Source: Eledone cirrhosa
Lineage: Eukaryota
Direction of reading: 5' to 3'
Assembly (NCBI GenBank): GCA_964016885.1
Contig: OZ024754.1
Location: 23,870,001-23,934,000, forward strand
DNA length: 64,000 nucleotides
The position numbers were made by a program, and so were the translations under genes. Shown here piece after piece: positions 62,004 to 62,246 of this stretch. Within the stretch, counting starts at the first letter, position 1; each line of letters begins with the position of its first letter. Under the pieces are notes generated by a model. That model worked only from the letters and a program-made list of their open reading frames with translations, made no database searches and was not told the origin of the DNA.

Positions 62004-62246
62004 CATGTATTTCATTTTCTTATGGCATTTTAAGAGGATCCGTCGAGCTGCGGATTATTGAGTCGGGTAGGATCGATATAGATCGAACCTTGAGCTAATC
62101 AGAGGCGAAACGCGCGTCACCTATCAATAAATGCAATGAAGGAATAATCAATCGTCCTTTTTATCCTTTCTATATATTACACTCTGTATAGTCGAGTGCT
62201 CTCCCGGGTGAACCTGCAGTAACTCCTAGTTACACCCCCTCGATAT
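62004..62246 (+). repeat. 3' pseudo-LTR, with AATAAA at ~62126, merging into (TA)n via GATAT
   Basis: Direct repeat of 57650-57915. Confidence 0.9.
62055..62130 (+). ncRNA. Type I hammerhead-like motif with CUGANGA reduced to CGA
   Basis: ATAGAT-CGA-ACCTTGA GCTAA TCAGAGGC-GAAA-CGCGC-GTC-ACCTAT; palindromic stem III as in dimeric PLE hammerheads; outer TTATTGA/TCAATAA helix. Confidence 0.6.

What the first reader, a model, noticed from the sequence alone, without database searches (positions are those of the whole stretch)
62055..62130. Hammerhead-like RNA missing four nucleotides of the catalytic core, in three copies
Seen: stem I (ATAGAT/ACCTAT, or TAGG/CCTA, with an outer TTATTGA/TCAATAA helix beyond a bulge), CGA in place of CUGANGA, stem II CCTTGA/TCAGAGG, GAAA, a palindromic CGCGCG stem III and a GTC cleavage triplet, followed by AATAAA. 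Established: PLE pLTRs carry minimal type I hammerheads that work as dimers; I recall core-deleted versions being noted for Hydra-clade PLEs without a demonstrated function. Retention of all helices suggests a new ribozyme variant, a trans-complemented dimer or a non-catalytic RT-recognition or priming structure.
Basis: partly seen in the sequence, partly recalled or inferred. Interest (0 to 1): 0.7.

Follow-up and report, generated by a model that had tools for sequence, protein, structure and literature searches.

The report
Core-mutated, long-armed retrotransposon hammerhead
The motif is the back half of a long-armed hammerhead ribozyme at the ends of a Penelope-like jumping gene; its core is not deleted but carries two letter changes that likely cripple self-cutting, yet this youngest branch made over a thousand copies, a likely natural test of whether such elements need to cut their RNA.

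Summary
The sequence and three copies are real; the '4-nt core deletion' is a misreading. It is separated from GAAA by a 60-nt stem II. The motif is the type I hammerhead in the pseudo-LTRs of a Hydra-type Penelope-like element (57650-62246, inverted partial copy 55271-57650). Related subfamilies carry canonical CUGANGA (625 matches) or CCGACGA (573). The window's CCGUCGA (U4C plus A6U; 1,002 matches) marks the youngest, nested lineage. Published mutagenesis predicts low activity for CUGA-turn double mutants, and one PLE inserts without hammerhead cleavage in vitro. Most likely this lineage transposes from uncut RNA and keeps the fold as a scaffold; cleavage was not tested. No core-deleted Hydra hammerheads appear in the passages and table I read of Craig 2021. 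This scan noted the same long-armed family (U4C form) earlier in this genome (e1-10322281); the fixed second change, A6U, is the addition here. New variant of a known kind; modest interest.

The parts
62031..62130 (+). Type I hammerhead motif, copy B (3' pLTR), whole extent
   Evidence: Covariance model R1 106.4 bits; this copy is in the training alignment; pair counts
62036..62039 (+). Stem I 5' strand (family GGGU; this copy GGAU, a private G>A at 62038 that breaks one pair)
   Evidence: GGU/ACC 64, AGU/ACU 7 of 104 copies; 90% paired; private change
62040..62046 (+). Core C3-A9 = CCGUCGA (U4C and A6U against canonical CUGANGA; C3, G5, G8, A9 kept)
   Evidence: Same position holds CTGACGA / CCGACGA in sister subfamilies
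62047..62106 (+). 60-nt stem II: basal helix 62047-62056 with 62097-62106 (G10.1-C11.1), middle helix 62063-62067 with 62089-62093, top hairpin 62073-62077 with 62082-62086
   Evidence: 85-95% paired per helix, C-G/U-A switch at 62051-62102 in 23 copies; folds as a rod when isolated in 6 of 7 representative copies
62107..62118 (+). G12-A13-A14, self-complementary stem III ACGCGCGU, cleavage triplet GUC (C17 = 62118)
   Evidence: No change among five subfamily majorities, but this stretch was a search anchor; self-duplex -13.3 kcal/mol predicted
62119..62134 (+). Stem I 3' strand ACCU and predicted distal extension (AAAUGC 62129-62134 with GCAUUU 62025-62030)
   Evidence: Folds; flank duplex matrix
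57677..57766 (+). Copy A in the 5' pLTR; core 57686-57692; 10-nt loss in the top hairpin of stem II
55317..55416 (-). Copy C in the inverted partial copy; core 55400-55394
57903..60509 (+). Broken RT + GIY-YIG ORF of a Hydra-type Penelope-like element (7 internal stops)
   Evidence: 84.6% identical by tblastn to an 861-aa open frame of the same subfamily in L299
57650..57915 (+). 5' pseudo-LTR
   Evidence: Direct repeat of 62004-62246
62004..62246 (+). 3' pseudo-LTR with tail; ends at a (TA)n tract
55271..57650 (-). Inverted, 5'-truncated copy of 60416-62177 joined to the 5' pLTR; outer end in a (TA)n tract at about 55222-55286
   Evidence: 96.7% and 97.8% identity; the arrangement described for PLEs in PMC8557442 Fig. 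2 legend

Best explanation
The motif is the 3' half of a type I hammerhead with a 60-nt stem II in the pseudo-LTR of a Hydra-type Penelope-like retrotransposon; its full-length core carries two substitutions (U4C, A6U) that likely leave it unable, or barely able, to cut, and the lineage likely transposes from uncut RNA while keeping the fold as a predicted binding scaffold for its own protein. Shown: position and letters of the core, the conserved helices, the element, the nested order of subfamilies, the copy numbers, and read-through of the GUC site in genomic copies. Inferred from published mutagenesis: loss of cleavage. Inferred from conservation only: a structural role. Ancestral copies would cleave after GUC as dimers through the ACGCGCGU palindrome.
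For: Fold: 90.3% of cells paired, 40 cells with both sides changed against 19.1 in shuffles (0/500), slid controls 22-45%. Core series: CTGANGAG 625, CCGACGAG 573, CCGTCGAG 1,002, CTGTCGAG 49 matches, controls 0, 0, 0, 1. Tree of 115 copies with the core removed: CCGTCGA copies nest within CCGACGA copies, which nest within CTGACGA copies. Samples anchored 3' of the site: median divergence 0.025 (27 in-frame of 30) against 0.082 (14 in-frame of 30). An 861-aa open frame exists in the same subfamily. A sister family (43% protein identity) has canonical CTGAAGA. Roberts 2023 (PMC9901934, passages): all single and double mutants of the CUGA turn had low activity except the C3-G8 swap. Perreault 2011 (PMC3088659): U4C considerably lowers activity in vitro; A6C is slow. 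[quoted passage not shown] 30 of 30 youngest-subfamily copies run through the GUC site. The top of stem II is 0.90 identical across subfamilies against 0.76-0.83 for the 3' flank, in 60 copies chosen without a filter on stem II.
Against: No cleavage or binding was measured. G5, G8, A9, G12 and C17 are all kept. U4C alone still supports viroid infection, A6C is rescued by Mn2+ (PMC7151607), and a PLE hammerhead is protein-assisted, so residual activity is possible. RNAalifold gave no consensus structure for the 103 copies. The hammerhead fold is not the free minimum: 6-9 kcal/mol above it with stem III left open; stem II base-pair probabilities are 0.03-0.44. Pair-type counts do not beat shuffles (140/500 and 56/500), and copies share ancestry, so the covariation is a few events. 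Read-through of the site is also the rule in canonical-core copies (27 of 30), so it does not single out this lineage. The oldest-looking group S1 is mostly CCGACGA (24 of 34), so U4C arose twice or reverted; the tree has only a midpoint root. Template switching can also keep stems complementary (L335).
Confidence: 0.6

Rival explanations
1. Neutral relic: the ribozyme is dispensable and the whole motif is decaying; the remaining structure reflects short time, chance and template-switch repair of quasi-palindromes rather than selection.
For: 2 of 7 core columns differ among subfamily majorities against 21 of 93 other columns. Frequent fold-back junctions inside the motif (L041, L051, L072, L335). 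Naiads amplify without canonical HHRs (PMC8557442).
Against: Only 1 of 31 columns of the stem II top differs among subfamily majorities (partly forced by my filter), and it stays more conserved than the flank without that filter (53 of 60 copies; copies are not independent). The youngest subfamily's 5' flank pairs best with its own 3' flank (-13.0 against -4.7 to -10.4 kcal/mol; 4 of 300 shuffles).
Confidence: 0.22
2. Active variant: CCGUCGA still cleaves at a useful rate as a dimer, helped by the long stem II, the extended stem I or the element's protein.
For: Catalytic G8 and G12, the C3-G8 pair, G5, GUC and the palindrome are kept; stem I was extended after A6U arose. U4C recurs in other families of this genome (L302, L304). 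Protein-assisted cleavage in PAc.
Against: No rescue among CUGA-turn double mutants in a full pairwise scan of another hammerhead. PLE minimal hammerheads are slow even with a canonical core (PMC4209133).
Confidence: 0.14
3. One reading: a hammerhead lacking four core nucleotides, with stem I ATAGAT/ACCTAT or TAGG/CCTA and stem II CCTTGA/TCAGAGG.
For: The outer helix appears in the minimum-energy fold of 62050-62135. The version with the outer helix beats shuffles on cells paired and cells with both sides changed (0/500 each).
Against: 66.3% and 70.3% paired against 90.3%; the first version shows no excess over shuffles (247/500); absent from copy A; a full core lies upstream; the shuffle excess comes from columns 39-40 with 91-92, which are unpaired in 39 and 62 of 103 copies.
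Confidence: 0.02

Closest known systems
Minimal type I hammerheads of metazoan Penelope-like elements (Cervera and de la Pena 2014, PMC4209133; read parts 1-2 of 4)
   Same: In both pLTRs; short proximal stem I; G10.1-C11.1; small palindromic stem III that suits dimers
   Different: Stem II is 60 nt against 7-8 bp; no extra nucleotide between A9 and G10.1; core U4C + A6U, where the parts read report U3-A8 as the core variant
Hammerheads of Hydra-clade PLEs (Craig et al. 2021, PMC8557442; passages, section 11, supplement parts 1-2 of 59)
   Same: Near the 3' end of a DKT / CxCx5C, CCHH-less, (TA)n-inserting element
   Different: All 26 listed rows have ctgaNga cores and stem II of 3-7 bp with 3-10 nt loops; this element is about 4.6 kb against mostly under 3 kb
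PAc (Poseidon, Anolis) hammerhead (Frangieh et al. 2024, PMC11167929; passages; author name recalled)
   Same: pLTR hammerhead upstream of the element's 3' ends; genomic copies made from unprocessed RNA
   Different: PAc has an active, protein-assisted core; its dead mutants were engineered and tested in vitro, whereas here a mutated core is fixed in a lineage that spread in vivo
Natural core variants U4C (viroid) and A6C (phage Bcep176) (PMC3088659 section 8 and passages; PMC7151607 passages)
   Same: Same two positions of the CUGA turn; reduced activity
   Different: Single changes, and C rather than U at position 6; here both positions are changed together

Membership tests
Type I hammerhead ribozyme | Three helices around a junction in type I order | tested here: met
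   stem I 90%, stem II 85-95%, stem III 97% paired
Type I hammerhead ribozyme | Core C3-U4-G5-A6-N7-G8-A9 | tested here: not met
   CCGUCGA in all three window copies; met in 625 sister matches
Type I hammerhead ribozyme | G12-A13-A14, A15.1-U16.1, NUH triplet | tested here: met
   GAAA...GUC at 62107-62118
Type I hammerhead ribozyme | Rfam Hammerhead_1 gathering score | tested here: not met
   12.3 bits against 34, E 7.4; no hammerhead hit in the whole-window scan
Type I hammerhead ribozyme | Self-cleavage after C17 | not testable with these tools
   Needs an in vitro assay
PLE minimal hammerhead | In pLTRs flanking an RT + GIY-YIG ORF; palindromic stem III | tested here: met
Hydra-clade PLE | DKT motif, CxCx5C linker, no CCHH, CxxC and CxH near the end of EN | tested here: met
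   Read by eye in the L299 open frame against section 11 of PMC8557442; the window copy has Y at the first linker C
Hydra-clade PLE | N-terminal RWK motif | tested here: inconclusive
   LWR in this family, RWK in the aligned sister family
Hydra-clade PLE | Insertion into (TA)n | tested here: met
   Both ends in the window and many loci
Hydra-clade PLE | RT phylogeny groups with Hydra | not tested
   No reference proteins were on hand; Pfam gave no relevant hit
   7-nt core present; no such class in the text and table read

The most novel reading that the evidence does not exclude
The CCGUCGA core is a working natural double variant: the 60-nt stem II, the rebuilt stem I and the element's own protein rescue a CUGA turn that a complete pairwise mutagenesis found unrescuable, making this a protein-dependent hammerhead with a new core.
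Probability: 0.12. Interest if true: 0.72.

Novelty: new variant of a known kind. Interest (0 to 1): 0.36.

Why it matters
Why Penelope-like elements carry hammerheads is open. One element inserts without cleavage in vitro. Here a lineage with a likely crippled core spread to at least 1,002 copies and is the youngest of its family, which would be in vivo support that cleavage is dispensable. Three natural, near-identical versions (CUGACGA, CCGACGA, CCGUCGA) give a ready assay series. Long stems II and changed cores also escape Rfam, so such motifs are likely under-counted.

Tried and rejected
(1) My own first parse, a CUGAUCA core (G8C) with a one-pair stem II, was rejected: it has no stem I, and CTGATCAG is the 3' strand of stem II. 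(2) Metagenome scan for that parse: 118 loci, nearly all chance matches in GC-rich DNA; one (L092) looks like a canonical minimal hammerhead. This used the only scan, so no relatives from other species were obtained. (3) RNAalifold on 103 copies gave no structure. (4) Pfam found nothing relevant in four proteins. (5) No RNA holder listed; contigs of three runs of one sample showed no GT..AG joint and cannot show ends, so splicing and cleavage are untested. (6) Lunse et al. 2017 is not held; seen only as cited in PMC6765202. It and its supplements may list long-stem or core variants of PLE hammerheads. The supplements of PMC4209133 and PMC9901934 were not read. (7) Literature searches gave no paper on core-deleted PLE hammerheads or on a natural U4C + A6U core; one search returned one paper, with 0 occurrences of A6U. 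These searches cover open-access text only. (8) 5' ends at the cleavage site: 0 of 30 youngest-subfamily copies; 2 of 30 older-type copies, sharing the same flank and so one event, plus one inversion joint about 3 nt upstream; too few to read. (9) Rows dropped: 146 anchored copies were cut to 104 distinct, in-register ones; 103 were aligned (one with a 3' deletion left out, L001 replaced by the identical window copy). Divergence from the first 30 loci is biased low because they were best hits to the window; I relied instead.

Full report
Observation. The stretch has two more copies: 57677-57766 (+), lacking 10 nt, and 55317-55416 (-). Rfam finds no hammerhead in the window and only 12.3 bits locally. 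The genome holds 2,387 matches to an anchored pattern and none to its reversed control.

Context. The copies lie in the pseudo-LTRs (57650-57915, 62004-62246) of a Penelope-like element with a broken RT + GIY-YIG frame (57903-60509, 7 internal stops). An inverted partial copy (55271-57650) is attached upstream, and both ends lie in (TA)n. An 861-aa open frame of the same subfamily exists elsewhere (L299). By eye it has DKT, CxCx5C, no CCHH, CxxC and CxH, the marks of Hydra elements in Craig et al. 2021; RWK reads LWR here. No protein tree was made.

The core is not deleted. Diverged copies show CTGACGA about 60 nt upstream of GAAA, preceded by GGT, which pairs with ACC after GTC. In the window that position (62040-62046) reads CCGTCGA. 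The 60 nt between core and GAAA form stem II. On 103 aligned copies this fold is 90.3% paired, with 40 cells changed on both sides against 19.1 in shuffles; slid controls give 22-45%. Stem I switches GGU/ACC to AGU/ACU (64 and 7 of 104); stem II switches C-G to U-A in 23 copies. The first shows no excess over shuffles; the second does, but from pairs broken in 39 and 62 of 103 copies. Against my fold: RNAalifold returned nothing, counts of pair types did not beat shuffles, related copies inflate the counts, and the fold lies 6-9 kcal/mol above the free minimum when stem III is left open.

History of the core. Exact patterns give CTGANGAG 625, CCGACGAG 573, CCGTCGAG 1,002 and CTGTCGAG 49 matches; these are lower bounds. 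In a tree of 115 copies built without the core, CCGTCGA copies nest in CCGACGA copies, which nest in CTGACGA copies; a separate group (S1) is mostly CCGACGA, so U4C arose twice or reverted, and the root is only a midpoint. Sampled by their 3' side, the window's subfamily diverges by a median of 0.025 (27 in-frame of 30), the older type by 0.082 (14 of 30). A sister family at 43% protein identity has canonical CTGAAGA. Two other families in this genome also have C at position 4. The window's own copies carry further private changes, including a broken stem I pair in copies B and C.

Likely working. Ancestral copies fit the known PLE minimal hammerhead, which cleaves slowly as a dimer (PMC4209133); ACGCGCGU is self-complementary. 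U4 and A6 belong to the CUGA turn. In a complete pairwise scan all single and double mutants there had low activity except the C3-G8 swap (PMC9901934). U4C lowers activity in vitro but allows viroid infection; A6C is slow in Mg2+ and rescued by Mn2+. I found no data on A6U with U4C. In the one PLE reconstituted in vitro, hammerhead mutants insert normally and cleavage needs the protein (PMC11167929). All 30 of 30 sampled young copies run through the GUC site, as do 27 of 30 older ones. I infer a lineage that transposes from uncut RNA with a crippled core.

Why the fold persists. The top of stem II is 0.90 identical across subfamilies against 0.76-0.83 for the 3' flank, higher in 53 of 60 copies chosen without a stem II filter; copies are not independent. 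The young subfamily's 5' flank pairs best with its own 3' flank, though young copies are least decayed, an older 5' flank pairs as well with S4 (-13.4), and template switching can do the same (L335). A scaffold role is therefore plausible but unshown.

Comparison and verdict. It works like, and descends from, a PLE type I hammerhead; the window's version fails the core test, so it is filed as a core-mutated variant. Core-deleted Hydra hammerheads were not found: 26 of 26 Hydra rows in File S2 have full cores. Lunse et al. 2017 could not be read. Earlier notes of this scan describe the same family in its U4C form and similar long arms in other genomes; I had reached the reading before that look-up. 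Papers seen: PMC8557442 passages, section 11, supplement parts 1-2; PMC4209133 parts 1-2 of 4; PMC3088659 section 8 and passages; PMC6765202, PMC7151607, PMC6155905, PMC9901934, PMC11167929 passages; bioRxiv 10.64898/2026.07.22.740005 part 1 of 5. Hammerhead numbering is the standard one, recalled. Interest 0.36.

Noticed in passing
window 63265-64000: A separate inverted repeat with a canonical minimal hammerhead (CTGATGA core at 63836 on +, mirror copy near 63399-63429 on -); the same motif recurs every 466 nt in L310, like a retrozyme.
   Followed up: partly
L300:2913-5594, L301, L303: A sister Hydra-type family with 893-894 aa open frames and a canonical CTGAAGA hammerhead with a 26-nt stem II.
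   Followed up: partly
L302:1903 and L304:1570: Unrelated hammerheads with C at core position 4 (CCGATGA, CCGAAGA), so U4C recurs in this genome.
   Followed up: no
L312:6414-6515: Unrelated hammerhead with a canonical core and an 81-nt stem II.
   Followed up: no
window 62010-62025 and 61626-61634: Pyrimidine tract ending in AG just before stem I in the family (G in this copy) and a donor-like AG/GTAAGG upstream; a possible pLTR intron as in Drosophila Penelope. No RNA data to test it.
   Followed up: partly
L335:1397-1421 and L041, L051, L072: Fold-back junctions inside the motif; in L335 the sequence upstream of stem I is the reverse complement of the 3' flank.
   Followed up: no
window 62190: The 3' pLTR lacks 33 nt present in the 5' pLTR and in other copies.
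   Followed up: no
window 1-55220: Mostly a 26/32-nt satellite with a TAGGGT-type array near 52900-53900 and GC-rich hairpin repeats near 47500, 49100 and 51900.
   Followed up: no
L299:6383-9001: A different, long RT-like open frame with an asparagine-rich insert begins just after the element.
   Followed up: no
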